From Dehalococcoidia bacterium (GTDB lineage: Bacteria; Chloroflexota; Dehalococcoidia; GIF9; AB-539-J10), in the NCBI GenBank assembly GCA_030612025.1, contig JAUWOR010000006.1, positions 26,043 through 90,042 of the forward strand: 64,000 nt of DNA, given 5' to 3'. Position 1 is the first letter of the stretch. The number at the start of each line of letters is the position of its first letter. Below the pieces are notes generated by a model that worked only from the letters and a program-made list of their open reading frames with translations, was not told where the DNA came from and ran no database searches. The translations under genes were made by a program, and so were the position numbers. This document shows positions 9,457 through 63,625 of the stretch, piece by piece.

Positions 9457-10491
9457 CTACTTAAAGCCAATCCCTTCTATCTCTATGAAATCGTCCTTAA
9501 TTCTTGTTTTGGCGCCCAGAAATTCCTCAATCAACCACAGGTTTGTCTCTACGTGTTCGGTAATTCTAGGAATCGAGTACCTGCTAGTTCCATCAGCCAA
9601 GCCAGCATAGATTATGAGCTGGTCTGCTATATACCTATCAACCGCGGCACCAGTTTTAACATCCTCTACAAAGCTTTGGGCTACATACCTCCCGATAGAC
9701 TCGGAGCTTCTTCCCGGCCTTCCTGCTCTATCCAAGCCAATTCTGCTACCTAAACTCGTCTTAGCATATATCGCCAGGGCAGCACCTTCCTGAAGCGAAC
9801 TCTCATCGTAAATTTCCTCGATTTCAGCCTTATAGCCATAAGAGCTTAATACCTTCTGGCATTCCTCTGCCATCCTGTGGCTCACTTCCCTTCCCTTCAA
9901 ATGAGAGGAGAGGGCGATTCCTTTGATATTGAGAATCCTGCCTTGCTCAGTAAGATTTAAAGGTTTTAATTTCTTTACCGGCTCAACTTCAATTTCTATA
10001 ATCCCGCCTCCTCGTGGCACGTAGCCAGGGCGAACTATCTCAAGCTCAGCCTGAATTCCCAGCTGTTCCAAAATTGGAAGCAAGACAAATTTCATATGAT
10101 AGGCAGAGGGGGCAAAATCCTGGAATATCCCGCCTTCGAGCCTGAATTTCGAGGGCTTTCCCGCAAAGCAGGCTAAAGGCAGAAGAGTTTGTGCCATCAT
10201 TGTGGTTGACCCTGCTGTCCCTATATCCCAGTGATACTCCCCTCCTTTAAACCTTCCCTTTGGAGCATAGGTAATCTCCTTAGAGCCCACCACGGCATTA
10301 CTCGCTGTGCCTTGGCACATCTCCTGACAAGCCTGGATAACCTTAAGGTGCTGCCTCCTTAGCCCTGGCCTATCCCTCTTCGCCCTGATATTTTGTATCT
10401 TTACCTCTTTCCCGAGCAGGCTAGCCAGAGCTACAGAATAGCGCACTATGGTTCCACTTCCAGACTTGGCGCCGCCATCTATAACCTTCAT
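9457..10491 (-). CDS. rtcA: RNA 3'-terminal phosphate cyclase
   Basis: 344 aa. The N-terminus (IDGGAKSGSGTIVRYSVALASLLGK) and overall length match RtcA. Confidence 0.85.
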   Translation of the reverse strand: MKVIDGGAKSGSGTIVRYSVALASLLGKEVKIQNIRAKRDRPGLRRQHLKVIQACQEMCQGTASNAVVGSKEITYAPKGRFKGGEYHWDIGTAGSTTMMAQTLLPLACFAGKPSKFRLEGGIFQDFAPSAYHMKFVLLPILEQLGIQAELEIVRPGYVPRGGGIIEIEVEPVKKLKPLNLTEQGRILNIKGIALSSHLKGREVSHRMAEECQKVLSSYGYKAEIEEIYDESSLQEGAALAIYAKTSLGSRIGLDRAGRPGRSSESIGRYVAQSFVEDVKTGAAVDRYIADQLIIYAGLADGTSRYSIPRITEHVETNLWLIEEFLGAKTRIKDDFIEIEGIGFK

Positions 10492-10544: not shown

Positions 10545-10808
10545 TCATTTACGGTATGCTTCTCCACGATGACGGACATGATAAATGGTCACGACTTTCG
10601 TTTTGACGTCCACTTGGTAGATTACCCTGTAATCCCCAACTCGAATTCGATAATCTCGTTCTGAGCCTCGAAGTTTACGGCATTGTGATGGAAATAGATT
10701 TTCTACAAGGGACTCAACTGCTTGAATAATCCGAGGGATTTGCTGTGGATCAATATTCCGTAAGTCTCGCTCTGCTGACCCTTTCCATCGAATCTCATAA
10801 GAGGCCAT
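10545..10808 (-). CDS. RelE/ParE family type II toxin
   Basis: 87 aa. The RelE/ParE C-terminal signature is present (YRIRVGDYRVIYQVD...VVTIYHVRHRGEAY). It overlaps the upstream antitoxin gene. Confidence 0.8.
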   Translation of the reverse strand: MASYEIRWKGSAERDLRNIDPQQIPRIIQAVESLVENLFPSQCRKLRGSERDYRIRVGDYRVIYQVDVKTKVVTIYHVRHRGEAYRK

Positions 10809-10986
10809 CTTTTTCTAACTTCTTTTTGAGTTCTTCAAAAGTTATAGTAGGCTCATCTCTACGTTCAGCGATAATTGCAAGGTCATGAATATCTTCTAGA
10901 AGCTCTTCATATTCCTCAACCGGAATAATTACTGCTGTTTTTTGTCCTTTTTCATCTACAACATATTGCTCTTGAAATTTTGCCAT
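10795..10986 (-). CDS. Phd/YefM-type antitoxin
   Basis: 63 aa and acidic. Its 3' end overlaps the toxin gene start by 14 nt. A palindrome, AGTATATACT, lies about 40 nt upstream. Confidence 0.7.
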   Translation of the reverse strand: MAKFQEQYVVDEKGQKTAVIIPVEEYEELLEDIHDLAIIAERRDEPTITFEELKKKLEKDGLL

Positions 10987-11258: not shown

Positions 11259-11447
11259 TTAGCACTGCTGATATTCAAATGCTAGCTGTAGGTTTATTTC
11301 CTTCGCGAGCAGGCTCGCCAGAACTACAGAATAGCGGACTATAGTTCCGCTTCCAGACTTTGCACTGCCATCTATGGTTATCATGTGCTGTTGTTTCTCC
11401 TCTTTGAAAAAGGCCTGTAACATTTTATATCTTTTGTTATACTCCAA
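11259..11447 (-). pseudogene. divergent 5' fragment of rtcA (partial duplicate)
   Basis: The ORF encodes ...MITIDGSAKSGSGTIVRYSVVLASLLAKEI, which matches the RtcA N-terminus. The stretch 11288-11390 is about 85-90% identical in nucleotide sequence to the 5' end of rtcA at 10400-10491. Confidence 0.7.
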
Positions 11448-11475
11448 AATACAATTTGCGCCTCTAAATGAGGGT

Positions 11476-11639
11476 GTTTAAAAATGTAGTTGCCCAATTT
11501 ATTGGGCGACTGTGCCTGATAAATCAGGCAACTACAAAAATTTAGGGTGAAACACCTCTGAGGTGGCTGAAATTGAACGGGAAATCAAAATTAAACAGCC
11601 TTTAAATAATTAGGAGGAAAATTTAAAAAGAGCCAAAAG
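11476..11639 (+). repeat. structured leader repeat, copy 1 (66-nt triple-hairpin core, then ~75-nt leader and RBS), upstream of the first PAC2 gene
   Basis: A near-identical inverted copy lies at 62756-62906. The core sequence is gtagttgcc-caatttattggg-cgactgtgcctgataaatcaggcaactac. It has two inner hairpins and one outer stem. Confidence 0.6.
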
Positions 11640-14676: not shown

Positions 14677-14972
14677 TGAGGAATTCCTCGCGTTAGGCTA
14701 GCGCTCTAGCATCTGGCCAGCATTGCATATAACTCGTGCATAACCGCACTGCGTTTATTTTTCATTTAGCTCCATCCTATCCAATGGATTTTGGGGCCCC
14801 CGCACCATCTTATTGGAAACATAGGTCATCTTCCCTGCTTCTTTTTTAAGATGATCATTTTGCACAATTAGTATATACGAAATTCTCTTTTTGTTCAGTA
14901 GCTTATTGCACAGGTATTGGATGCCCTCACTATTTCCATTAAGCACTACAAAAAGTTACCTGCTAATTCCAG

Positions 14973-17900: not shown

Positions 17901-18188
17901 ATGTCTATAGCGCTTTAGCTGTTCACCGTTCTCAATGTAGTCAAGATTTTCTGTGAGAGGCTCTTTTGCCTCAATATAACCAACAATGTTTTGCCTCCCA
18001 TCCCAAACCCTGAAATCAGGGTTGCCTGCCTCAGTCTTCTTGGGCAAGGTGGTGATATGAATATGCTTTTTGTTAATAGAATCAGCAAGGGCCCTTAGGA
18101 GCTCCTCTAAACTTGAGTAATAGCTTTCCTCCCGAGCATCGCCAGTCTGGGTAACCTCATATAATCTCTTAAGGTATGTCTTTAGCAT
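14973..18188 (-). CDS. single-polypeptide restriction-modification enzyme, MmeI-like type IIL/IIG, with fused N-terminal PD-ExK endonuclease, N6-adenine methyltransferase and target-recognition domain
   Basis: 1071 aa. The N-terminus carries PDFRV...GYIEAKEP, a D-x(n)-EAK nuclease motif. Methyltransferase motif I (VLDPAAGTLTF) and motif IV (LGNPPYSG, NPPY, gamma-class) are present. The large C-terminal region fits a specificity domain. Confidence 0.75.
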   Translation of the reverse strand: MLKTYLKRLYEVTQTGDAREESYYSSLEELLRALADSINKKHIHITTLPKKTEAGNPDFRVWDGRQNIVGYIEAKEPLTENLDYIENGEQLKRYRHTFPNLILTNFFEFRLYRNGRLVDKALLARPFIIHQLKTVPPVENRDGFLNLLNKFLSFSLPKAYTAESLAVELAKRTSFLKEQVIVEELKEERSSVLGFYEAFQKYLIAGLTQDGFADLYAQTITYGLFAARTRCKNGFNRKLAYDYIPRTIGILRDVFSFISLEELPKQMEWIVDEISQVLAVADVNEILDKFYHEAKGRDPVYYSYETFLAKYNPEERERRGVYYTPESVVSYIVRSLDIILKERFDRPDGFASNSVTVLDPAAGTLTFPAEASKLALEQFIAKYGKGGKESFIKEHILKNFYAFELMMAPYALGHLKVALLLEELGYKLREDERFKFYLTNTLEMEELEQTVLPGMASLAEESHLAGKVKKEEPILVILGNPPYSGISANLSERKVTVEKGNRYVTNYQIQEDKLNGCYKLIPQTKEARRKMKIKQKTWIGELIEHYKVIDGQWLGERKQWLQDDYVKFIRFAQWKIDQAGEGVLGFITNHSYLDSPTFRGMRQSLMNSFNELYLLDLHGNSLKRERCPDGSKDENVFDIQQGVAISLFIKRKGLEKKVFHSELWGLQKDKYDWLLGNDVNTIEWQQLKPDSPYYFFVPRAETYRNVYEKFWKITDVFPINCVGIVTARDKFVIDFDRDVLKRQIVMFRNLSMPDELIKQAFKLKDTSTFKFRKSRETLSKDKNWDKYFTQISYRPFDKRNIYYTNIVVERPLLEVMHHMMRENLGLLTCRQNTLGFHHAFICENIVESCVVSNKTREISYLFPLYLYLGKGDMFNQEEARRRKPNLNLKLVESLAEAYGKEPTPEEIFYYIYSILYSNIYRSKYAEFLKIDFPRVPFTKDHELFNRIGKCGSKLADLHLIKSAELNNPIAKFEGSGDNKVERPRYSEKEMRVYINNDQYFEGIEKEVWEYQIGGYQVLDKWLKDRRGREVSLEDVKHYCRVVTALKKTMEVQQKIDSLYANIEKETIEISR

Positions 18189-18262
18189 TTTCTGACACTC
18201 GAACTCCGACCTTATTCATATTATAATACTTAAAGCTGAAAAAAGCATAAGCAGCTTGAGAC

Positions 18263-18469
18263 ATGTCTAGCTCAGGACAGAGAACCGGGATTGCCAATTT
18301 GCCACTTCACTATGGCAAAGTGCCTCCGTGGCTGTTTGGGCGGATGTGCCAGCTTGCTCGGGAGATAGCCATTGTCATTGTTGATGAATTTGGAGCTGAG
18401 GAGATGCTCCGCCGCTTCTTGAACTGTTTTCATCAGCCACCTCCTTTGTTGTCCTCAATAACATTATAG
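18263..18469 (+). pseudogene. divergent 5' fragment of the DUF763 gene
   Basis: MSSSGQRTGIANLPLHYGKVPPWLFGRMCQLAREIAIVIVDEFGAEEMLRR matches the N-terminus of the intact gene at 19426. Nucleotide identity is about 90% over 160 nt, and the sequences diverge after that. Confidence 0.7.
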
Positions 18470-18594
18470 GATGATAGTCAGCGCAATTTGAGTTTTCGCC
18501 AAATGTTCCCGGTGTAAAAGGAGTTCTGCGTAACCAGAATTTCGACGGGGTGAGGCGTAGTCTTTTATACCATGTTATACAAAAAGTGAGAGCA

Positions 18595-18936
18595 TCATTC
18601 TGCTTCTTCCAAAATTCGCAAAACTTTCGGTTTCAGCTCCGGTAAATCCCTTTCCACAACTGCCCAGACCCGCTCCAGATTTACACCAAAATATCCATGA
18701 ATGAGAACATCCCTCATTCCTGCAATCTGCTTCCAAGGGATATTGGGATACTTACTCTTAAAATCCTCGGGTATGTTCTTTACAGCTTCTCCTACAATTT
18801 CCAACCTTCGAATTATAGCATCTTGAGTCCGAATATCCTCCATAAAGTGTGCTTTGCTCATACCTTGAGAGTATTCCTCTATCCTGTCAGCGCTTTCCTT
18901 AATATCTTCGAGGAAAACCCTTATTTCTTTCTTCAT
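18595..18936 (-). CDS. HepT-like (DUF86, HEPN) toxin of a HepT/MNT toxin-antitoxin pair
   Basis: 113 aa. The HEPN motif R-x4-HGY is present in GMRDVLIHGYF. It is coupled to the MNT gene by an ATGA overlap. Confidence 0.8.
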   Translation of the reverse strand: MKKEIRVFLEDIKESADRIEEYSQGMSKAHFMEDIRTQDAIIRRLEIVGEAVKNIPEDFKSKYPNIPWKQIAGMRDVLIHGYFGVNLERVWAVVERDLPELKPKVLRILEEAE

Positions 18937-19220
18937 ACCACCGACACCTGTTCATTGAGAATCCGTTCTTTCAATAAAGGATGAATTGTAGAATATTCAA
19001 CAAGATCAACTTTTCTTCCTAACGCTTCCTCAAGTTCCAACTTCAATGCTACAAGATCGAGCAAACTTTTCTCTTCGGGCAATTCTACAAGGATATCAAT
19101 GTCGCTCCCTTCTTTCATCTCCCCCTTCACAAGGGATCCAAATACTGCAGCTTGCACAACGCCATGACCCGTCAATATAGGAACTATTTTGCTTCTAACT
19201 TCCTCAATGTATTTCTCCAT
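18933..19220 (-). CDS. MNT-type nucleotidyltransferase antitoxin
   Basis: 95 aa. The nucleotidyltransferase motif is present (AAVFGSLVKGE...GSDIDILVEL, i.e. GS...DxD). Confidence 0.8.
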   Translation of the reverse strand: MEKYIEEVRSKIVPILTGHGVVQAAVFGSLVKGEMKEGSDIDILVELPEEKSLLDLVALKLELEEALGRKVDLVEYSTIHPLLKERILNEQVSVV

Positions 19221-19425
19221 AATTGATCACCATTTCCATCTGATGCCGTCATTTCATATAACTTTAGTATATACGAAATTCGCTTTTTATTCAGTAGGTT
19301 ATCAGCATATACATATACTTGGGTAGCTGCTCCCTTTCAAAGCCAGCCGCACCTCTGGCAACTTTTCGTCATGCGGCAAATATCGGTCAAGGTAACGCTG
19401 TTGTATAATATCTGTAGAAAAGGAT

Positions 19426-20514
19426 ATGTCCACCTCAACACAAAGAACCGGGATTGCTAATTTGCCTTTGCACTATGGCAAGGTGCCTCCGTGGCTTTTT
19501 GGGCGGATGTCTCAGCTTGCTCGGGAGATTGCCATTGTCATTATTGATGAATTTGGAGCTGAGGAGATGCTCCGCCGCCTTTCTGACCCTTTCTGGTTTC
19601 AAGCTTTTGGCTGTGTCCTGGGCTACGACTGGCATTCCAGCGGCGTTACTACCACTGTTTGCGGGGCTCTGAAAGAAGGGATGCGAGGCTTAGAAAAAGA
19701 ACTTGGCCTGTTCGTTGCCGGCGGCAAGGGCAGGACTTCACGAAAAACCCCAGCGGAGATAGAAAGCTTTGGGCATCTGCTAAAAGTAAATCCATCGCCT
19801 CTAATCTATGCCAGTCGGATGTCAGCCAAGGTAGATAACTCAGCCCTTCAAGACGGCTATCAGCTCTATCACCATACTTTCTTCTTTACCAGAGACGGCT
19901 CCTGGGCAGTAATTCAGCAGGGCATGAATGAGATTAACCGCTATGCGCGGCGTTATCACTGGCTAGGAGAAAAAGTCGTTGATTTTGTTTGTGAGCCTGA
20001 GGCAGCTATTTGCTCCCAAGCTAGAGGCGAAGCACTAAACTTGGTAGCATCAGAGAGCACACAAGCGCGAAACGTCATCACCGATATTGCTGCTGAGGAA
20101 AAGCCGGAGAATATCGTAACCCAATTGAAGAAGCTAAAAACCTTGACTCTGCCCCGGCGATCTTACATCAGCCTCGAAGACATTCATCCCGACCGACTGA
20201 GCAAGCTCTTCACCATCGCTTATGAGCATCAACCAGAAAACTTTGAGTCACTGCTGGGGCTTGAAGGTATAGGACCAAAGACGCTTCGCGCTTTGAGTCT
20301 TATCTCAGAATTGGTTTACGATACACCGGTTAGCCTGCATGACCCGGCAAGCTACAGTTTTGCCCATGGTGGCAAGGATGGTCATCCCTATCCTGTGGAT
20401 AGGAAGACTTATGATGCTAGCATCGAATTTCTGGCTCAGGCGGTAGATAAAGCCAAGATTGGCGATAAAGAGAAGCTTGATGCCTTCAGACGCCTAAAAG
20501 TTTGGACTGTATAA
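19426..20514 (+). CDS. DUF763-family protein, conserved hypothetical and archaeal-like
   Basis: 362 aa. Partial, divergent copies of its 5' end (18263-18469) and 3' end (22407-22510) flank two inserted cassettes. Confidence 0.7.
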   Translation: MSTSTQRTGIANLPLHYGKVPPWLFGRMSQLAREIAIVIIDEFGAEEMLRRLSDPFWFQAFGCVLGYDWHSSGVTTTVCGALKEGMRGLEKELGLFVAGGKGRTSRKTPAEIESFGHLLKVNPSPLIYASRMSAKVDNSALQDGYQLYHHTFFFTRDGSWAVIQQGMNEINRYARRYHWLGEKVVDFVCEPEAAICSQARGEALNLVASESTQARNVITDIAAEEKPENIVTQLKKLKTLTLPRRSYISLEDIHPDRLSKLFTIAYEHQPENFESLLGLEGIGPKTLRALSLISELVYDTPVSLHDPASYSFAHGGKDGHPYPVDRKTYDASIEFLAQAVDKAKIGDKEKLDAFRRLKVWTV

Positions 20515-20540
20515 CTAATAGTGATAACTAAGGTACAGGC

Positions 20541-20963
20541 TTAAAAGTTTAATGATTGACGAATAGTTGCTAAATCTCTTTGGAAAAAGCCTTTTACGTC
20601 ACTATTACTAAAATATTCCTGAACTGGCTTTTCAAGAAATTCTCTTTCTGCGGGGAAGTGAAGATACCTAGCAATTCTGCTTTGCTCATAAAGTTTCCTA
20701 AACGATTGCCACACCTTAAATGAGTAGTTTTCTAAAATCATCTCGGTTCTGTAGTCATGATAGCTTCCTTTGTAATTACGAGGTTTGCTTATTTCGGTAT
20801 GCACGATTTTGGGATTCTGAAAGAAGGCAGCTTCAACATAATGGATAGCAGCGTAAAAGGTTGCAGTTATAATCCAATCCTTATATTCCAAGCTGGCTAA
20901 TAGTTGCCGGGCTAGACTTTCATTATGTCGTGCTTGTCGCAAATGAGCTTGTAGAGATGCCAT
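20541..20963 (-). CDS. hypothetical protein, gene 3 of the uncharacterised cassette
   Basis: 140 aa with no recognisable motifs. It lies last in a co-directional three-gene string. Confidence 0.5.
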   Translation of the reverse strand: MASLQAHLRQARHNESLARQLLASLEYKDWIITATFYAAIHYVEAAFFQNPKIVHTEISKPRNYKGSYHDYRTEMILENYSFKVWQSFRKLYEQSRIARYLHFPAEREFLEKPVQEYFSNSDVKGFFQRDLATIRQSLNF

Positions 20964-21567
20964 CTAGACTTCTTGACCAAATCAGTTTCACATCTGGATT
21001 GAATATCTGAGCTAAAGACTCAAACTCAGTGAGCCTGGGGATATATTCAAAGGAAAGAGGAACATCCTTAAATTGCAATCGAACATTTCTCTCACTGATG
21101 AGAAGCCGATTCATTAATTCGTCGTCATACTTTTCATTCGTTGTTAGTATAAGGAACCTTTTTCTCTGCAGGTATTCATCGGAATAAATCGAAAACACCT
21201 GCTCTATTCCTTCAAAAATGCCTATAACCTTCCGTTCTATGCGAAATTCACTACTCTCCTCCTCAGCTTTCGTTGAGAACTCAACCCATCTAATAAGTGT
21301 ACCAGAGTTCAGAGAAAAGACCTCTTCCCACATAGCCTCCAAGGTGGTTACAAGCTGGCGATCTAATAAATCGATAGCTTTAGAACACTGCTTAACTTTC
21401 TCAACCCCGAGATATTGTGTAACCTCTTTGCCAGCAGTAACTTCTTTAAAGGCATTCAGCAAAATCTCAGAAAACATCTTAAAGGTTGTATTCTCCACAT
21501 CTTCTCGCCTTAGCCTCCATGGTGTATAAGGCTGGGTAACAGTGGATATAGAAGCAAGAGCACACAT
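20923..21567 (-). CDS. hypothetical protein, gene 2 of the cassette. The probable start is MCALAS at 21567.
   Basis: An ATG at 21565-21567 is preceded by GAGGAGGA, which lies within the last codons (FTEED*) of the upstream gene. The start was reassigned from the ORF-track position of 21633. Confidence 0.5.
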   Translation of the reverse strand: MCALASISTVTQPYTPWRLRREDVENTTFKMFSEILLNAFKEVTAGKEVTQYLGVEKVKQCSKAIDLLDRQLVTTLEAMWEEVFSLNSGTLIRWVEFSTKAEEESSEFRIERKVIGIFEGIEQVFSIYSDEYLQRKRFLILTTNEKYDDELMNRLLISERNVRLQFKDVPLSFEYIPRLTEFESLAQIFNPDVKLIWSRSLDGISTSSFATSTT

Positions 21568-21569
21568 AC

Positions 21570-22277
21570 TTAATCCTCCTCTGTAAACAAAGACTTTAAA
21601 TCGCTTTCCACAAAAGTGAAAACTTGGGAACAAAAAGCTGGAATCTGTTCTGCACTAAAATCATATTTCATCTCTGAGACTGTATTTATATCTGTCTCAA
21701 TGAGCAAAGCATTAGCTTCTTCTAAGGTTTCTTTACCCTCAGGGCTAAGGCATCTAAATCTGTGCCATCTGTTTACCTTAAATTCTCCTAGAGCAAACTT
21801 GTGCAAAAAGTTCAGATTAAGTTCGCGCGGATCGACAATCGTTCCTGACTTCAAGAACTTTTTCATTAAGAAATCCACGGGGGACTCTTCTGGAAACACA
21901 GCTGAGTTTACAACAATCCCCATGCGCTCAACTTTCACTCTAAGTTCTGTTTTTACAGCCCTAGCAATGTTGGCAAGCTGAGTCAAAAAATCATCTTGCA
22001 CCTCTTCAAGCTTTTTATTTTCACCTTTCTTCTGTCTTAAAAAAAACTCAAGTCTTTTAGGGCTTATGTGGCAATGAAACATCTTATTCTTATCCCCAAG
22101 GATAATGCGCGGAATTTCAACGGGAGCATCATCAGGTATCGGTAAAATAGTCTGTTCACCACTAAACAAGTTTTTTGTAGCTTTGTTTAGATTTTGAGCA
22201 ACTTCTATTCTGTCAGACAGAGCTATATCGCTGAAAAGAACTACTAAAATTCTTCGGATAAAAATTTCCATTGCCAC
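21570..22277 (-). CDS. hypothetical protein, gene 1 of the cassette
   Basis: 235 aa with no recognisable motifs. Its stop codon abuts the RBS and start of gene 2. Confidence 0.5.
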   Translation of the reverse strand: MAMEIFIRRILVVLFSDIALSDRIEVAQNLNKATKNLFSGEQTILPIPDDAPVEIPRIILGDKNKMFHCHISPKRLEFFLRQKKGENKKLEEVQDDFLTQLANIARAVKTELRVKVERMGIVVNSAVFPEESPVDFLMKKFLKSGTIVDPRELNLNFLHKFALGEFKVNRWHRFRCLSPEGKETLEEANALLIETDINTVSEMKYDFSAEQIPAFCSQVFTFVESDLKSLFTEED

Positions 22278-22406
22278 CTCTCTTATATTAGATTCAAACC
22301 CCGGCGAAAAGTATCAAACGCCTCATCAATATACGCCAAAAAACACTTCTTGACAATAGGGGGGACTTTGCACAATCCCGGTAGAACTTTCTTAAACAAT
22401 CTGGCC

Positions 22407-22510
22407 TTATACGATGCTAGCATTGAATTTCTGGCTCTGGCAGTGGACAAAGCCAAAATTGGCGATAAAGAGAAGCTTGATGCCTTCAGAAGATTAAAGG
22501 CTTGGCGGTA
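22407..22510 (+). pseudogene. divergent 3' fragment of the DUF763 gene
   Basis: About 88% nucleotide identity to 20405-20514. It encodes ...DASIEFLALAVDKAKIGDKEKLDAFRRLKAWR*. Confidence 0.65.
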
Positions 22511-22534
22511 AAGGAGGTTTTAGGGTGAGTTTTT

Positions 22535-22588
22535 CACCCTCACCTTAATCCTCTCCCGTCAAGGGAGAGGAAATTTGGCTCGCAATGA
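22535..22588 (+). repeat. REP-like hairpin element, copy A (caccctcaccttaatcctctccc-N-caagggagaggaaat)
   Basis: Further copies lie at 56274-56316 and 58304-58357, all in the same orientation. A degenerate relative is at 24464-24495. Confidence 0.7.
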
Positions 22589-22638
22589 CATAGTGAAGTT
22601 ATTGTTACAAGGCTCTATAATATAGGGTAAGCAGTAAA

Positions 22639-23979
22639 ATGACCCATTTTGATATCGCATCTTATGTGTCCCACATCGAGGCTAATAGGTCAGTCAAGGA
22701 TGCCCTGATGCAAAAGTTAAAGACTCGCCGGCCTCCATACCATATTTCAGTAACTGACCTGACTAACCTGAAGCAGGCTTACTTTAAGAGAAAATACCCG
22801 GAAATCGTTCCACCTCTGGAAAAACAACAGCTTCTGTGGGCTGGCACCGGGTTTCACAAGATCTTTGGTTCGGCTGTTTCCAGCGAAGAATATCTGGAGC
22901 AGTTTGTCGAAGCTGAGGGCATCGTAGGCAAAATTGATATCTATGAAAATATACCCATAGAGGTGAAAACAACCTCAACCCTGGTAAGCACGGGAGACTT
23001 GGCTAAATATAGGCCGACTTATGTGGAACAACTGGGCATATACTGTGCTATGGTCAACTCCCTCCAGGGGAAAATCATTATTTACCAGCGCCACGATTCT
23101 ACAGAATCACCCCAAGCTCCGCTTATTGCCTACCAGGTTACTTTTCCCGATCTGGAAGCAATCCGAGAGGAAATGCGGCAAAGGCGAGATCTCTTGGTAC
23201 AAGCACTCATCTCAAATGACCCCAGTAATCTGCCTATCTGTGCTTGGTTTAATAGGGGATGTGATTATTCAGAAGTATGTGACTGCAGGACTACTTCGGT
23301 GCCGCTATCATACACGATTGCTGAACTAGCAGGGCAAATCCAAATTGACGAGCCCACTTGCCAACAACTCCTTGATAAGCTTGCCAAGCCACAGCCATCT
23401 CGACTATTTCGAACCAACGACCTCGTCTTCCCCCGTAAGGCATACTTTAAGCGTGCCAAGCCGCAAGAAATCGCCATTGACCAAGGGTTGCCGCAAGAAA
23501 AAGAAGAGCATCTTCGTTCCATGGATGAACTAGGCTTTCTCGATGCGCTTCGTGATGCGTTACGCTACGGCGCTCCAGGCGAAGTGGAAAGGATTCCCAT
23601 ACAACATAGACTATTGGCTGACCTGGTCCAAGTCTGTCAGAACTTGCCCACCATCTTGCGCGACCCAAAGTTCTATTCCCTGGTGGAAAGGGAACGCTTG
23701 CCCTGGACATTCCCTCATTATTTCCTCCGCCTGGGATTCGAGTGCGCCCTAACAGACCATCCCCAGGGCAGGCTACTGCTTTATTACGCTAACGTTCCTA
23801 GAGAAGATGCTAAACTAATGGTCTATGATGCGACCTTTAGAAATTTGCATGCCCTCAAGACGGAGGCATTACGCCGCGTTGAGCTTTTGCAAAAAGCAAC
23901 GTCTCCACTTCAGCTTCCAAAATGTCCCTCATGGATGTGTCCTAACTGTAGCTATAAGTTTGAATGTGGTGAAGCATGA
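22639..23979 (+). CDS. Cas4/RecB-like PD-(D/E)XK nuclease domain protein with two cysteine clusters (putative Fe-S centres)
   Basis: 446 aa. The nuclease motifs are GKIDIYENIPIEVKTT (D...ExK) and YVEQLGIY (QxxxY). The first Cys cluster is CAWFNRGCDYSEVCDC. The C-terminal Cys cluster is CPSWMCPNCSYKFEC (C-x4-C-x2-C-x5-C). Confidence 0.55.
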   Translation: MTHFDIASYVSHIEANRSVKDALMQKLKTRRPPYHISVTDLTNLKQAYFKRKYPEIVPPLEKQQLLWAGTGFHKIFGSAVSSEEYLEQFVEAEGIVGKIDIYENIPIEVKTTSTLVSTGDLAKYRPTYVEQLGIYCAMVNSLQGKIIIYQRHDSTESPQAPLIAYQVTFPDLEAIREEMRQRRDLLVQALISNDPSNLPICAWFNRGCDYSEVCDCRTTSVPLSYTIAELAGQIQIDEPTCQQLLDKLAKPQPSRLFRTNDLVFPRKAYFKRAKPQEIAIDQGLPQEKEEHLRSMDELGFLDALRDALRYGAPGEVERIPIQHRLLADLVQVCQNLPTILRDPKFYSLVERERLPWTFPHYFLRLGFECALTDHPQGRLLLYYANVPREDAKLMVYDATFRNLHALKTEALRRVELLQKATSPLQLPKCPSWMCPNCSYKFECGEA

Positions 23980-24467
23980 ACTGGCTGGATATAGTTATCA
24001 TAATAGTTACTCTCTTACTCGGCATGCTGGGATTATGGAGAGGAGCTATCAAGGCTGTATTTGGTATCGTCGGGTTAATAGGAGGTATAGCTCTAGCAGG
24101 GCATTACTACCTGCCACTTGCCAGCATACTCTCCTCCGGTGAAGCTATTTGGTCGAGGATAGCTGCCTACGCTATTATCCTGGTGGCCACTTTGATTGTA
24201 GCTAGCGTAATCGGCTGGTTTGTAGCTCGCTTGGTTCACATCGTGATGCTCGGCTGGGTAGATAGGCTTATTGGTTTCATCCTTGGAGCCGCCATAGGTA
24301 GCATGCTATGCGCCGCTGTCCTTGCCATTGTAAGCAAGTATTTATCAGTCATGGGGGGAGTTATCTCTCAGTCTGTAATGGCAAAACTCTTGATGGAGCA
24401 ATTTCCTTTGTTATTAGCGCTCCTCCCCGAGGAATTTGACTTCATTGCTGACTTCTTTTCACTCTAA
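23976..24467 (+). CDS. cvpA: CvpA-family membrane protein
   Basis: 163 aa with four transmembrane segments and CvpA-like topology. It overlaps the nuclease gene stop by 4 nt (ATGA). Confidence 0.65.
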   Translation: MNWLDIVIIIVTLLLGMLGLWRGAIKAVFGIVGLIGGIALAGHYYLPLASILSSGEAIWSRIAAYAIILVATLIVASVIGWFVARLVHIVMLGWVDRLIGFILGAAIGSMLCAAVLAIVSKYLSVMGGVISQSVMAKLLMEQFPLLLALLPEEFDFIADFFSL

Positions 24468-44608: not shown

Positions 44609-45904
44609 TTGGGAGATATGGCTTACAAAAAGGAAAAAATGCAGCTAAATGGAGAGCAAAGGAAGATACTGGATGGAAAGGAAGGAAAAATCCTACAGGA
44701 GGCGATGGAGTCTCTCATTAAGTATGGCACTGCTATGGGTGCTAGGGAATTCATCAGAATCTCCAGTGCTCATACCTTGTTCACGTTAAGGAGCAAGGTA
44801 GCTAGGTGCTTCCTTCCGCGTGGTGTTCTGTTAACCAAAGAGGATATTGATAAGTTTAGCAAAGAGATAATTGGTACCCAAGTAAGAGTCAAGACCACAG
44901 TTAACCCTGGAGCAATAGACCGTGAGAAGTGGCAGCAGATGGGTGCTGAGGAGGCCACTTATAATTCAGTGATGCAAACGGTAGAGATTGGTAAGAGGTG
45001 TGGGTTTATGATGACTTATACCTGCATCCCTTACCTTACAGATAATATTCCTTTAATAGGTCAACACGTTGCTTGGTCTGAGTCTAGTGCTTATCTTTAC
45101 ATTAACAGCTTCTTAGGAGCTCGGTCAAACCGTGATTCCTGCGAGATATCCTTATATTCATCCTTGCTAGGCATTGCTCCGAACTTTGGCCTGCACCTTG
45201 ATGAGAATAGGAGGGGTACTGACTTAATTAATGTGCAATGTGAGTTAAAAGGTCCCATCGATTGGGGTGCACTAGGTTACTTTACAGGAGATAGAGTGGG
45301 TATAGGTATTCCGGTATTCAAAAATTTGAGGAGACCAACTACAGAGGAAGCAGTACAATTAAGTGCATCCATGAGTTCCTCTGGTGCTGTACCTATGTTA
45401 CATATTGTGGGTGTGACACCTGAGGCGCCAACTATTGAGACAGCTTTCAGAGGGAACACGCCAAGGCAAACATATATCTTCGATGAATCTGCCAAAGGAG
45501 AGGTTTACCAGCTTCTCAATTACAAACCTGAAGGGAAGGTGGATATCGTTTTCCTTGGCTGTCCACATGCAACTCTCTACGAGATAAAAGAGATAGCTCG
45601 AATGCTTGAAGGTAAGCATGTGGCCAATGATATTAGACTTTGGGTCATGACATCGTCTTCCATTAGAGCTTCGGCAGAACAGCTGGGGTATGCTGAGATA
45701 ATTGAGGATAGTGGGGGGGAACTATTTGCTGATGGATGCTTTCTCTGCTACTACGTAAATGCTCCTAATAAAAAGCCCAAGATGGATCGTATAGCAACCA
45801 ATTCAGCCAAGCAGGCTTTCGGTGCAAGAAGGTCATTTAACAGCAATGTATTTTTTGGAGACACGGAGCGTTGTATCCAGATTGCTATTGATGGAGGTGC
45901 TTAA
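44609..45904 (+). CDS. AcnX-type (aconitase X, DUF521) dehydratase large subunit, pair 1
   Basis: 431 aa and paralogous to 50436-51695. Shared blocks include YGTAMGA, W[SA]ES..YLYINS.LGA.SNR and ATNSAK.AF.ARRSF.SN.FFG. A DUF126-type small subunit follows immediately. Confidence 0.65.
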   Translation: MGDMAYKKEKMQLNGEQRKILDGKEGKILQEAMESLIKYGTAMGAREFIRISSAHTLFTLRSKVARCFLPRGVLLTKEDIDKFSKEIIGTQVRVKTTVNPGAIDREKWQQMGAEEATYNSVMQTVEIGKRCGFMMTYTCIPYLTDNIPLIGQHVAWSESSAYLYINSFLGARSNRDSCEISLYSSLLGIAPNFGLHLDENRRGTDLINVQCELKGPIDWGALGYFTGDRVGIGIPVFKNLRRPTTEEAVQLSASMSSSGAVPMLHIVGVTPEAPTIETAFRGNTPRQTYIFDESAKGEVYQLLNYKPEGKVDIVFLGCPHATLYEIKEIARMLEGKHVANDIRLWVMTSSSIRASAEQLGYAEIIEDSGGELFADGCFLCYYVNAPNKKPKMDRIATNSAKQAFGARRSFNSNVFFGDTERCIQIAIDGGA

Positions 45905-46320
45905 TGGCAGCAGCATCAAAAATATTCAGGGCGAAAAAAATCGTTCCAGGTAAGGTTTCAGGGCCAGCTCTGGTTACTAGGGGGTGTCTCTCCTTTCAGG
46001 GCTTTATTGATCCAAAGCGAGGGGTATTTTCTGCACCAGTGACTGAGTTGCAAGGAGCTTCATTTGTTGGAGCAGTATTAATTTTCACTTCGGGGAAAGG
46101 TCCTTCCGTTGGGCCGAGTGTACTTGACCTCGCCTGTCGTTTTGGAAATGCCCCAGCAGCAATCATTAACTTGGAGATAGACCCCATGATAGTTGCAGGC
46201 TGTGCTTTGCAAAACATCCCGCTGGTGCAGGTAAAGGATTCAGGCATTTTCGACCAAGTAAAGAACGGAGATATAGTAACGGTGGATGCAGACAGAGGTG
46301 AGGTGACAATTTCTAAATAG
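45904..46320 (+). CDS. AcnX swivel-domain small subunit (DUF126), pair 1
   Basis: 138 aa with AKKIVPGKVSGPALVT...SFQGFIDPKRGVF. It is start/stop coupled to the large subunit. Confidence 0.65.
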   Translation: MAAASKIFRAKKIVPGKVSGPALVTRGCLSFQGFIDPKRGVFSAPVTELQGASFVGAVLIFTSGKGPSVGPSVLDLACRFGNAPAAIINLEIDPMIVAGCALQNIPLVQVKDSGIFDQVKNGDIVTVDADRGEVTISK

Positions 46321-50439: not shown

Positions 50440-51695
50440 GGTTAACTGAAGTACAGCAAAATATAATTAATGGTGATAAAGGGAGACTTCTTAGAGAAGC
50501 ACTTATTAACCTGGTTAAATATGGCACTGCCATGGGTGCTGAGGAATTTATCCCCATCACCAGCGCCCATATTGCGTTTTCAGCAATGGACGTTGTGGCT
50601 TTGTGCTTCTCTCCACGTGGTAGGGAGCTAACAAAAGCTGAGATTGATAGGATTACCGAAGAGATGAGAAATATTAAAGTTAATGTTAGAACCACCGTTA
50701 ATTCAGGAATAATTGATCGTAGAAGGTGGCAACAAATGGGTGCTGACGAGTCAATTTATAATTCTGTAATGCAGGCAGTTGAAGTTGCAAGAGAGTGTGG
50801 GATAATGCCTACCTTCAGTATCACACCCCATCTAACTGATAATATCCCACTTATGGGAGAGCATTGTGCATGGGCTGAGTCTGGAACGCATTTATATATT
50901 AACAGTATTTTGGGAGCACAATCTAACAGAGAGTCGTATGAGTCAGCTTTTTACTCATGCCTACTAGGTATTACTCCAAACTTTGGCATGCACCTTGATG
51001 AGAATAGAAAAGGTACAGACTTGGTTGATATCCAGTGCGAGCTAGAATATGGTAGTGATTGGGGTGCATTAGGATATTTCACTGGTGATAGTATTGGTAT
51101 AGGTATACCTGTATTTAAAAATCTAAAAAGGCCAGTTGTTGAGCAGGTAAATCAACTTTGTTTTGCAACAAACTCTCCTGGTGCTATTCCAATGCTGCTT
51201 ATTCCCGGTGTGTCTCCTGAGGCTCCAACTCTTGAGGCGGCCTTTAGAGGAAACAAACCCAGGAATACATACTTTTTTGATGATAAAGCCAAACAAAGAA
51301 TTTACAATTCTCTCAACTATAATTCTAAAGGAGAAGTGGACTTAATTTCTTTTAGATGTCCTACTTTATATGAGTTAAGTAAAATAGCTAAAATGATTGA
51401 GGGAAAGAAAGTTCACAAAAATACTAGATTATGTGTAATGACTTCTGATTCTATTAGACACTCTGCGGAGCAAATAGGCTATGCTCAGATAATTGAGGAC
51501 AGCGGTGCAGAGCTATTTGCTGATGGTACACTACTTATTTTCTACATAAATGCACCTGCAAAGAAACCTAAGATGAATAGGATAGCAACAAATTCAGCCA
51601 AGCTTGCTTTTGCCGCAAGACGGTCATTTCACAGCAACATATTTTTTGGAAGCACAGAGCGCTGCATCGAAATAGCCATTAAGGGAGGTGTGTAA
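50436..51695 (+). CDS. AcnX-type (DUF521) dehydratase large subunit, pair 2
   Basis: 419 aa and paralogous to 44609-45904. Confidence 0.65.
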   Translation: MRLTEVQQNIINGDKGRLLREALINLVKYGTAMGAEEFIPITSAHIAFSAMDVVALCFSPRGRELTKAEIDRITEEMRNIKVNVRTTVNSGIIDRRRWQQMGADESIYNSVMQAVEVARECGIMPTFSITPHLTDNIPLMGEHCAWAESGTHLYINSILGAQSNRESYESAFYSCLLGITPNFGMHLDENRKGTDLVDIQCELEYGSDWGALGYFTGDSIGIGIPVFKNLKRPVVEQVNQLCFATNSPGAIPMLLIPGVSPEAPTLEAAFRGNKPRNTYFFDDKAKQRIYNSLNYNSKGEVDLISFRCPTLYELSKIAKMIEGKKVHKNTRLCVMTSDSIRHSAEQIGYAQIIEDSGAELFADGTLLIFYINAPAKKPKMNRIATNSAKLAFAARRSFHSNIFFGSTERCIEIAIKGGV

Positions 51696-51696
51696 T

Positions 51697-62755: not shown

Positions 62756-62906
62756 AGTTTCACCTCCTAATTATTTTGAGGCTGTTTAATTTTGGTTTTC
62801 CGTTCAAATTTGGGCATTTTGAAAGCCTTTCACCCCCAGATTTTTGTAGTTGCCTGATTTATCAGGCACAGTGGCCCAATAAATTGGGCAACTACATTTT
62901 TAAACA
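62756..62906 (-). repeat. structured leader repeat, copy 2, inverted orientation, directly upstream of the Fe-ADH gene
   Basis: Its reverse complement matches 11476-11639. The 66-nt core has 1 mismatch. The leader is partly conserved, with an identical RBS context taattaggagg. Confidence 0.6.
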
Positions 62907-63625
62907 GCCTTATTTTGAACTCACAGATTGCTTTCGTGGGAGTACTTCAAATGGGCACTCACCGCAGTGTTTCCAAATTGATATAGCTTTTTAGCTCCAA
63001 TACCTCCTTTATTGGCCCTGCCAATACTGCCATATTCGCACCGCTTACTAGCGTATCACCTCTTGCGGTATTTGTTAATATAGTAACCCTCTACACATTA
63101 TTTAACCACCTTGTAGTCTTAAGATAGCTGCCAGCCCTTCTCTGGAACTTGGCTCTATGGTGGGAGAAATTGCCTTTTAAGCCACTGCCAACTGATGAGC
63201 AAATCGGAACCTTAGTTTAGAGCTGGATAGCTGATTTGTGAAAAGTCAACACAAACCTATTAACATTCGCTATTTTGGGTAGTAGGATTGAATTAAGGCA
63301 GTAGCACTAGAGTAATTAACAGCTTGATAGTGCTGTCCGCACAAGGCTAGTCTATTGTTCATAAGGACAATATGCATATGGGGCGGGAGTGCCTGTGATA
63401 ACTGAGGCATTCCCCTTGTTTTTATGCACCAGAAGAAGAGGTGATGCCTATTAAGACAAAAGACGCTCAGGAAAGACTAGTAGGAAAGATGAAAAAACCC
63501 CGCTATTTTAGTGCTGTTGAAGCCGTTTGCTGGGGTTTATTTTCTCCGCGAGTTCAATTATTATTAGAGGGATGAGTATTAAGTTAAGAGTTTATTATCA
63601 TTGCATTTTTGAGCAGAAAGAAAAA

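What the first reader, a model, noticed from the sequence alone, without database searches (positions are those of the whole stretch)
20541..22277. Uncharacterised three-gene cassette lodged between a DUF763 gene and a divergent partial copy of its 3' end
Three co-directional ORFs are tightly coupled. Gene 1 ends with its stop codon inside the GAGGAGGA RBS of gene 2, and genes 2 and 3 overlap. They encode proteins of 235, about 214 and 140 aa, and I can recognise no family motifs in any of them.

They sit on the opposite strand to their neighbours. The neighbourhood is a defense island holding an MmeI-like restriction-modification enzyme, a HepT/MNT pair and a RelE/Phd pair.

The cassette is bounded by the intact DUF763 gene on one side. 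On the other side is an ~88%-identical 3' fragment of that same gene. This is the signature of a cassette imported by homologous recombination from a divergent lineage.

That context makes it a candidate new defense or abortive-infection module, or another kind of accessory module.
Basis: partly seen in the sequence, partly recalled or inferred. Interest (0 to 1): 0.72.

Follow-up and report, generated by a model that had tools for sequence, protein, structure and literature searches.

The report
Rare three-gene HEPN module, function untested
Three tightly linked genes of a Dehalococcoidia genome form a rare, mobile operon whose last gene is predicted to fold like a HEPN RNA-cutting toxin, so it is a plausible but untested toxin-antitoxin or anti-phage module with two partner proteins of no known family.

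Summary
Three minus-strand genes (233, 214 and 140 aa) are tightly coupled, with a 2-nt gap and a 41-nt overlap. They sit between an intact DUF763 gene and a 96-nt, 87.5%-identical copy of its 3' end.

Gene 1 is a confident double beta-alpha-beta4-alpha saddle with no close solved relative. Gene 2 shares only a ~100-aa C-terminal domain with about 180 other clusters.

The order g1-g2-g3 recurs wherever contigs are long enough, down to about 28-35% identity. Five of eight independent contexts lie beside restriction-modification genes. Thirty-two related genomes have DUF763 directly next to the downstream nuclease gene, so the trio is an insertion.

A 5' remnant of DUF763 also exists. The imported unit is therefore a 4-kb block (HepT/MNT, intact DUF763, trio) nested in the resident gene.

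Best reading: a new three-component HEPN toxin-antitoxin or abortive-infection-type module. Function is not demonstrated.

The parts
21570..22271 (-). g1, 233 aa. Predicted double beta-alpha-beta4-alpha (TBP-like/AdoMetDC-like) saddle. Carries the near-invariant loop LPIPDDAPxEIPR plus VNRW and DINT motifs.
20923..21567 (-). g2, 214 aa, acidic (pI 4.9). Variable N-terminal half and a conserved C-terminal domain of about 100 aa (E..V..IY..Y..F.IL...YDD.LM..LL..E...SF.YIP...LI..R). No known family.
   Evidence: Profile search of 1.84 billion representatives gave 178 hits, all to the C-terminal domain only. No Pfam, PADLOC or PDB match. hhalign against MNT, g1 and g3 found nothing. pI.
20541..20963 (-). 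g3, 140 aa, basic (pI 9.3). HEPN-fold protein of the AF0298/AbiV type: E44 in helix 2, H55 in the helix 2-3 insert, R99-Y100 at the end of helix 3.
22328..22356 (-). Promoter-like site TTGTCA-17-TATATT upstream of g1, inside the inserted DNA.
   Evidence: Only sigma-70-like match in 20300-22700, 10 of 12 positions. Both hexamers are conserved in five trio loci (window, L005, L001, L018, L099).
21574..21581 (-). GAGGAGGA Shine-Dalgarno sequence of g2, within the last codons of g1. The g1 stop follows at 21572-21570 and the g2 ATG at 21567.
   Evidence: Read directly from the sequence.
22410..22505 (+). 3' remnant of the resident DUF763 gene (nt 985-1080). It is contiguous with the ancestral intergenic region and the PD-(D/E)XK gene.
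   Evidence: 87.5% over 96 nt. Colinear with empty-site relatives L013-L016 from DUF763 nt 985 into the PD-(D/E)XK gene.
18263..18415 (+). 5' remnant of the resident DUF763 gene (nt 1-153). It is contiguous with the ancestral flank towards the Type ISP/MmeI-like gene.
   Evidence: 90% over 153 nt. Colinear with L014 and L015 from the restriction gene into DUF763 nt 153.
18416..22409 (.). 3,994-nt block that replaces nt 154-984 of the resident DUF763. It holds HepT (18595-18936, -), MNT (18933-19220, -), the intact DUF763 (19426-20514, +) and the trio.
   Evidence: L005 has the same breakpoints.

Best explanation
The trio is a self-contained, horizontally mobile three-component module of the toxin-antitoxin / abortive-infection type, built around a HEPN effector.

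Shown:
- The three genes form one operon with its own conserved promoter and tight translational coupling.
- The order g1-g2-g3 is conserved across very divergent homologues and unrelated genomic contexts.
- The module is an insertion at this site.
- g3 has a HEPN fold.

Inferred:
- g3 is the effector. It is basic and keeps the acidic residue in helix 2 (E44), a His in the helix 2-3 insert (H55) and the Arg at the end of helix 3 (R99). This is the alternative active site proposed for AF0298-like HEPN-T proteins and AbiV. It would act as a metal-independent RNase on host or invader RNA.
- g2 is the direct neutraliser or adaptor of g3. It is acidic and its 3' end overlaps the g3 start.
- g1, a double TBP-like saddle, is a separately encoded substrate-binding or trigger-sensing subunit. 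The analogy is the TBP1-TBP2 domains fused to the HEPN domain in RnlA, where TBP1 is needed for RNA binding.
- Release or activation of g3 on infection or loss of the element would arrest growth.
For: - Operon anatomy.
- g1-g2 gaps of 1-57 nt and g2-g3 overlaps of 1-44 nt hold in seven loci.
- Conserved synteny at 28-87% identity: L001, L005, L007-11, L018, L093-99, L102, L105, L108, L109.
- Purifying selection, dN/dS 0.14-0.37.
- HEPN fold of g3.
- E44, R99 and Y100 invariant, H55 nearly so, in a 14-sequence alignment down to 28% identity.
- These residues fit the AF0298/AbiV description in PMC3710099.
- pI of g3 is 9.3, g2 4.9, g1 5.6.
- g1 fold.
- RnlA precedent for TBP-like domains plus HEPN: PMC8266594.
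- Insertion status: 32 empty sites against 1 occupied among species representatives.
- GC 0.38-0.40 against 0.48-0.49 for the flanking genes.
- Restriction-modification genes adjacent in 5 of 8 independent contexts.
- Very distant g1-like proteins carry different downstream genes (L110, L012). This fits a conserved sensing or binding module with exchangeable effectors.
Against: - No experiment exists. No sequence-level match to any HEPN, toxin-antitoxin or defence profile was found.
- The canonical catalytic His of Rx4-6H is not conserved, so RNase activity is uncertain. HEPN domains without it can be nucleotide- or substrate-binding.
Its antitoxin role rests only on gene position and charge.
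- No DNA-binding antitoxin domain is present.
- The context sample is small. Three of eight contexts show no defence genes.
Confidence: 0.5

Rival explanations
1. Enzyme-controlled (type VII-like) module. g1 is not a passive binder but a nucleotide-using enzyme on an arginine-kinase/glutamine-synthetase-like saddle. It covalently modifies g3 at the invariant R99-Y100 pair, or makes a small signal, and so switches the HEPN protein off or on. This would parallel MntA AMPylating the Tyr next to RX4H in HepT.
For: - g1 has invariant polar residues typical of a pocket: D48, E52, R55, N167, D194, N196, T197.
- g3 keeps an invariant Arg-Tyr pair at the HEPN motif position.
- AMPylated HEPN toxins are among g3's structural neighbours (8xdj, 7ae2).
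Against: - No nucleotide-binding motif was recognised.
- No profile match to any kinase or nucleotidyltransferase was found.
- The role of g2 is unexplained.
Confidence: 0.15
2. Pure addiction (post-segregational killing) cassette. It stabilises the mobile block it travels in and has no role against phages.
For: - It travels in a block together with another toxin-antitoxin pair (HepT/MNT) nested in a disrupted gene.
- A ParE/RelB pair in the same window shows the same gene-end duplication.
- Its distribution is sporadic.
Against: - It was not found on any plasmid or phage record.
- It sits in chromosomal sites beside restriction-modification genes, as defence islands do.
- Three components are more than simple addiction needs.
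Confidence: 0.15
3. Non-catalytic HEPN. g3 is a ligand- or nucleotide-binding subunit, like the sacsin HEPN domain or the C-terminal domain of kanamycin nucleotidyltransferase. The trio would then be a small accessory RNA-metabolism or regulatory complex, not a conflict system.
For: - The His of Rx4-6H is not conserved.
- The closest folds are the classical HEPN-T proteins and sacsin. Nucleotidyltransferase-fused HEPN-like domains are also hit (4ebj, 3jyy, 6nlt).
- PMC3710099 notes loss of the motif in substrate-binding HEPN domains.
Against: - Many invariant polar residues in a 140-aa protein suggest chemistry (H7, Q10, N14, H41, E44, R72, R99, Y100).
- No nucleotidyltransferase partner is present.
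- The patchy, insertion-type distribution, the low GC and the restriction-modification neighbours are atypical for housekeeping genes.
Confidence: 0.15

Closest known systems
AF0298-like HEPN-T proteins (PDB 2hsb; Pfam HEPN PF05168 clade) and AbiV
   Different: No sequence-profile match to PF05168 or to any AbiV model. HEPN-T proteins are normally paired with, or fused to, a minimal nucleotidyltransferase. Here the partners are two unrelated proteins of no known family.
RnlA/LsoA (RNase LS) toxin with RnlB/Dmd antitoxins
   Same: It combines two TBP-like domains with a HEPN RNase domain and a separate protein inhibitor, and it acts in anti-phage defence. TBP1 is needed for RNA binding (PMC8266594). 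g1 (double TBP-like topology), g3 (HEPN) and g2 (inhibitor?) would be the same parts on three polypeptides.
HepT-MntA (HEPN-MNT, type VII toxin-antitoxin), an example of which lies 1.3 kb away at 18595-19220
   Same: A small HEPN protein is encoded downstream of, and overlapping, its partner gene. A conserved Tyr sits next to the motif Arg.
   Different: There is no nucleotidyltransferase. g2 lacks the GS/DxD motifs and hhalign against MNT gives probability 0.1%. g3 does not match the HepT-like profile PF01934, which the neighbouring HepT matches at 1.6e-33. A third gene is obligatory.
Tripartite toxin-antitoxin systems (for example toxin-antitoxin-chaperone TAC)
   Same: Three co-transcribed small genes, one of them an RNase-type toxin.
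   Different: No SecB-like chaperone, no HigBA-type proteins and no shared families.

Membership tests
HEPN superfamily | Up-down four-helix bundle with HEPN topology | tested here: met
HEPN superfamily | Rx4-6H motif at the end of helix 3 | tested here: not met
   R99 is invariant and R96 is frequent at the end of helix 82-100. The His (H102 in the window protein) is replaced by Y, C, K, N, E, I or L in homologues.
HEPN superfamily (AF0298/AbiV variant) | [quoted passage not shown] | tested here: met
   R99 and E44 are invariant and H55 is nearly invariant (>=90% of 14 sequences). Helix boundaries. Criterion taken from PMC3710099.
HEPN superfamily | Sequence-profile match to a curated HEPN family | tested here: not met
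   Pfam, NCBIfam and PADLOC give nothing at E<=1. All 14 members scanned at E<=5 give no HEPN family. The PDB profile search gives nothing.
HEPN superfamily | Metal-independent RNase activity in a dimer | not testable with these tools
   Needs biochemistry.
HEPN-MNT (HepT/MntA) toxin-antitoxin | Adjacent minimal nucleotidyltransferase with GS...DxD motifs | tested here: not met
   No NTP_transf_2 or Polbeta match for g1 or g2. hhalign of g2 against MNT gives probability 0.1%. No conserved Gly-Ser or DxD in g2.
RnlA/LsoA (RNase LS) | TBP-like domains fused N-terminally to a HEPN domain with a canonical R...H motif | tested here: not met
Known anti-phage systems in PADLOC-DB v2 | Match of any component to a system model | tested here: not met
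   No match for g1, g2 or g3, nor for 75 members of the g2 family beyond noise.
Toxin-antitoxin modules (generic) | Small co-transcribed, translationally coupled genes with a basic toxin and an acidic partner, patchy mobile distribution | tested here: met
Toxin-antitoxin modules (generic) | Toxicity of one component that is neutralised by another | not testable with these tools
   Needs expression experiments.

The most novel reading that the evidence does not exclude
A new family of three-component immune modules. A free-standing double TBP-like saddle protein (g1) would be a conserved RNA- or trigger-recognition subunit that is wired, through an adaptor or inhibitor (g2), to exchangeable effectors. 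In most members the effector is an AF0298/AbiV-type HEPN RNase. In distant branches (L110, L012) it is an unrelated protein. This would be the RnlA logic split over separate genes, and a new anti-phage system class found mainly in uncultured anaerobes.
Probability: 0.3. Interest if true: 0.6.

Novelty: new variant of a known kind. Interest (0 to 1): 0.5.

Why it matters
If it is confirmed, several things follow.
- A HEPN-based conflict system would be added whose two partner proteins belong to no described family.
- It would give an experimental handle on the poorly understood HEPN active site that lacks the canonical His (the AF0298/AbiV type).
- It would show that the TBP-like-plus-HEPN arrangement of RnlA can exist as separate subunits.

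The locus also documents how Dehalococcoidia acquire such cargo. Three cassettes in this one window are flanked by duplicated ends of the gene they landed in. The DUF763 / PD-(D/E)XK gene pair acts as a recurrent landing site.

Tried and rejected
- Sequence family searches of all three proteins (Pfam, NCBIfam, PADLOC, PHROGs, PDB profiles) gave nothing useful. The only hits were two weak PHROGs of unknown function for g1.
- g2 as a cryptic or inactivated MNT nucleotidyltransferase was considered because HEPN-T proteins usually pair with MNT. hhalign gave probability 0.1% and no GS/DxD motif is conserved, so there is no support.
- Internal relatedness was tested (g2 against g1, g2 against g3, g1 N-half against C-half). 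None is detectable by hhalign.
- g1 in plasmid and phage records by tblastn: no match.
- Viral contigs gave one distant g1-like protein with different neighbours.
- Rfam search of 18000-24000: nothing.
- I tried to tell which DUF763 end is 'native' from identity to relatives. The segments are too short to resolve this. Colinearity with empty-site relatives settled it instead.
- A functional link of the trio to DUF763 or the PD-(D/E)XK gene is rejected. The trio occurs without them in L007-L011 and L093-L098.
- The AFDB fold libraries were unavailable.

Full report
**Observation**

The window carries three minus-strand ORFs:
- g1 at 22271..21570, 233 aa from an ATG preceded by GAGAGGTGG.
- g2 at 21567..20923, 214 aa.
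- g3 at 20963..20541, 140 aa.

The g2 Shine-Dalgarno sequence GAGGAGGA (21581..21574) lies in the last codons of g1. The g1 stop (21572..21570) follows it and lies two bases before the g2 ATG. g2 and g3 overlap by 41 nt.

The flanking genes are on the other strand: DUF763 (19426-20514) and a PD-(D/E)XK/Cas4-like gene (22639-23979). A 96-nt copy of DUF763 nt 985-1080, 87.5% identical, lies at 22410-22505.

The neighbourhood holds a Type ISP/MmeI-like restriction-modification enzyme, a HepT/MNT pair and a ParE/RelB pair. The description is therefore correct. The only changes needed are the position of the stop codon relative to the RBS and one omission, described under origin below.

**Are they real genes and a unit?**

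Each protein has only about 20 relatives among 5.8 billion clusters. None carries a Pfam domain, and the contig lengths are shared between the three hit lists.

Contexts fetched for close and distant relatives show the same three genes in the same order:
- L001, L005, L018 and L099 at the same chromosomal site.
- L007-L009, L010 and L011, where g1 is only 33-38% identical, in unrelated sites.

A profile of g2 searched against 1.84 billion representatives found 178 proteins that share only its C-terminal ~100-residue domain. Four of these were looked up, and all lie in g1-g2-g3 trios (L093, L094/95, L096/97, L098). A metagenome scan with g1 gave 12 loci. In nearly every one with enough DNA downstream, g2 and then g3 follow g1. 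The exceptions are L110 and, on a short contig, L106.

The g1-g2 gap is 1-57 nt and the g2-g3 overlap is 1-44 nt in seven loci. dN/dS against three orthologous loci is 0.14-0.37. That is purifying selection, but looser than for most comparisons of the flanking genes (0.04-0.11, with one at 0.31).

A promoter-like site, TTGTCA-17-TATATT, lies at 22356..22328. It is the only such match in the region, and both hexamers are conserved in five loci.

**What the proteins are**

None of the three matches Pfam, NCBIfam or PADLOC at E<=1. g1 has two weak PHROG matches of unknown function.

- TT1696 at 13.0, ST0689 at 12.9 and the sacsin HEPN domain at 12.4.
- Then HEPN toxins (5yep, 8xdj, 7ae2), Csm6, AbiA, LsoA, RnlA and AbiV.

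In a 14-sequence alignment reaching 28% identity, the invariant residues are H7, Q10, N14, W30, F36, Y37, H41, E44, R72, R99 and Y100. H55 and H69 are nearly invariant.

The canonical Rx4-6H motif sits at the end of helix 3 (PMC3710099). g3 has R99 there, at the end of helix 82-100. The His (H102 in this protein) is not conserved.

The same paper describes exactly this situation for the AF0298-like HEPN-T family and for AbiV. The His is lost, the basic residue is kept, and an alternative conserved His comes from the insert between helices 2 and 3. A conserved acidic residue lies in helix 2. g3 has H55 in that insert and E44 in helix 2.

I therefore place g3 in the HEPN superfamily by fold and by this motif variant. 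I do not place it in any curated sequence family.

*g1.* The model is also confident (pLDDT 89, pTM 0.86). Its element order is beta-alpha-beta4-alpha followed by beta-alpha-beta3-alpha, a duplicated saddle.

The family has a striking, nearly invariant proline-rich loop, LPIPDDAPxEIPR, together with VNRW and DINT motifs.

*g2.* It has no detectable relative in Pfam, PADLOC or the PDB. It shows no similarity to MNT, g1 or g3 by hhalign.

g3 is basic (pI 9.3). g2 (4.9) and g1 (5.6) are acidic.

**Distribution and context**

A scan of species-representative genomes with DUF763 returned 80 Dehalococcoidia or Chloroflexota MAG loci. By tblastn:
- 32 have DUF763 followed directly by the PD-(D/E)XK gene, with gaps of 17-240 nt.
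- Two have other ~0.9-kb inserts there. One holds a 108-aa ORF that reads to me like a HicB-type antitoxin (my reading, not tested).
- Only L018 carries the trio.

The trio's GC is 0.38-0.40, against 0.48-0.49 for the flanking genes. It is therefore an insertion between two co-directional, normally adjacent genes.

Restriction-modification genes lie beside the trio in five of eight independent contexts:
- This site (Type ISP/MmeI-like).
- L010 (N6_N4 methyltransferase, HepT).
- L011/L106 (Eco57I/TaqI_C enzyme directly upstream).
- L096 (HTH, methyltransferase and a 403-aa protein directly upstream).
- L093 (Eco57I-type enzyme 3 kb away).

L007, L103 and L108 show none. No copy was found on plasmid or phage records.

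Two very distant g1-like proteins have different downstream genes. They are L110 (24% identity) and L012 (on a viral contig next to an AAA_15/AAA_21 ATPase).

**Origin at this site**

There is also a 5' fragment of DUF763 (18263-18415, nt 1-153, 90% identical), upstream of HepT/MNT.

In the empty-site relatives L014 and L015, the stretch from the restriction gene into DUF763 nt 153 is colinear with window 18100-18415. In L013-L016, the stretch from DUF763 nt 985 into the PD-(D/E)XK gene is colinear with window 22410-22700.

The two fragments are therefore the remains of the resident gene. A 3,994-nt block (18416-22409) replaces its nt 154-984. The block carries HepT/MNT, a complete DUF763 and the trio.

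L005 has the same breakpoints, although its DUF763 is about 11% diverged at the DNA level, so the event is old. L001, L018 and L099 carry the trio between the DUF763 stop and the PD-(D/E)XK promoter without any fragment.

I cannot tell from these data whether the nested structure arose in one illegitimate event or in two Campbell-type insertions of circles that carried a gene-end homology.

A third case in the window looks the same: an 89-nt, 84% copy of the RtcA 5' end flanks the ParE/RelB pair.

**Mechanism**

The best-supported reading (confidence about 0.5) is a three-component toxin-antitoxin or abortive-infection-type module.
- g3 is a HEPN effector, probably an RNase that uses the alternative E44/H55/R99 site.
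- g2 is its translationally coupled acidic neutraliser or adaptor.
- g1 is a separately encoded binding or sensing subunit.

The nearest architectural precedent is RnlA. There, two TBP-like domains are fused to a HEPN RNase, TBP1 is needed for RNA binding, and a separate protein, RnlB, blocks the active cleft (PMC8266594). PMC3710099 also notes TBP-like fusions in the RNase LS family.

The operon, the synteny, the insertion status and the HEPN fold are shown. The roles of g1 and g2, RNase activity and any defence phenotype are inferred.

Rivals:
- g1 may be an enzyme that modifies g3 at the invariant R99-Y100 pair. This would be type VII-like, and is prompted by the arginine-kinase/McsB fold matches and by g1's invariant polar residues.
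- The trio may be a pure addiction cassette.
- g3 may be a non-catalytic, ligand-binding HEPN.

**Verdict**

The interpretation as a candidate defence or abortive-infection module is reasonable and is now better founded, because the module has a HEPN core, conserved synteny, insertion status and restriction-modification neighbours. It remains unproven.

The proposed mode of import needs correcting. The imported unit is a nested 4-kb block, and the event is an old one.

I rate it a new variant of a known kind (HEPN-based conflict systems), with moderate interest.

Noticed in passing
window 18263-18415: A 5' remnant of DUF763 (153 nt, 90% identical to the intact gene) lies upstream of HepT/MNT. 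Together with the 3' remnant it shows that a 4-kb block is nested inside the resident gene. Locus L005 has the same breakpoints.
   Followed up: yes
window 10394-10482 and 11287-11375: An 89-nt, 84%-identical direct duplication of the 5' end of the RtcA (RNA 3'-phosphate cyclase) gene flanks the ParE/RelB toxin-antitoxin pair at 10545-10986. This is the same gene-end-duplication signature seen around HepT/MNT and the trio, and it suggests a common route of cassette capture in this lineage.
   Followed up: partly
window 19426-23979; loci L013-L078: DUF763 and a 446-aa PD-(D/E)XK/Cas4-like protein form a conserved, co-directional adjacent gene pair in 32 of the Dehalococcoidia MAG loci fetched. 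The spacer between them, and the regions on either side, carry variable cargo: restriction-modification genes, toxin-antitoxin pairs, the trio, and other ~0.9-kb inserts in L017 and L027. The function of the pair is unknown. DUF763 shows a weak helix-hairpin-helix match.
   Followed up: partly
window 22529-22587, 56273-56313, 58297-58355: A hairpin-forming intergenic element (CCTCTCCC-GTCA-AGGGAGAGG core) occurs three times at 90-95% identity, resembling a REP-type repeat. One copy lies just after the DUF763 3' remnant.
   Followed up: no
window 11463-11617 and 62763-62918: A 156-nt inverted repeat, 85% identical, links two intergenic regions 51 kb apart.
   Followed up: no
window 44718-46306 and 50515-52096: Two stretches of about 1.6 kb are 69.5% identical, probably paralogous genes. 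They were not examined.
   Followed up: no
window 20541-22271 compared with L005 and L018: Synonymous divergence is mosaic inside the trio. Against L005, dS is 0.18 for g1, 0.51 for g2 and 0.12 for g3. g2 is closer to L018 (dS 0.37) than g1 and g3 are (about 0.8-1.0). This suggests that g2 was exchanged by recombination within the cassette.
   Followed up: partly
L110 5849-7672; L012 9884-11577: Very distant g1-like proteins that keep the PxPxDAPxE[IL]PR loop are followed by unrelated genes. L110 has a 232-aa and a 141-aa protein that do not match the g2 or g3 profiles. L012 has a 99-aa and a 216-aa protein, with an AAA_15/AAA_21 ATPase upstream. None has a Pfam match.
   Followed up: partly
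L026 369-740 (-): A solitary g3-like HEPN ORF (28% identity, HMM E 1e-15) lies 3 kb upstream of DUF763 in another Dehalococcoidia MAG. No g1 or g2 was detected beside it.
   Followed up: no
window 14868-14906 and 19264-19302: A 39-nt direct repeat (92%) occurs just downstream of the restriction-enzyme gene and again between MNT and the intact DUF763. It could mark cassette boundaries.
   Followed up: no
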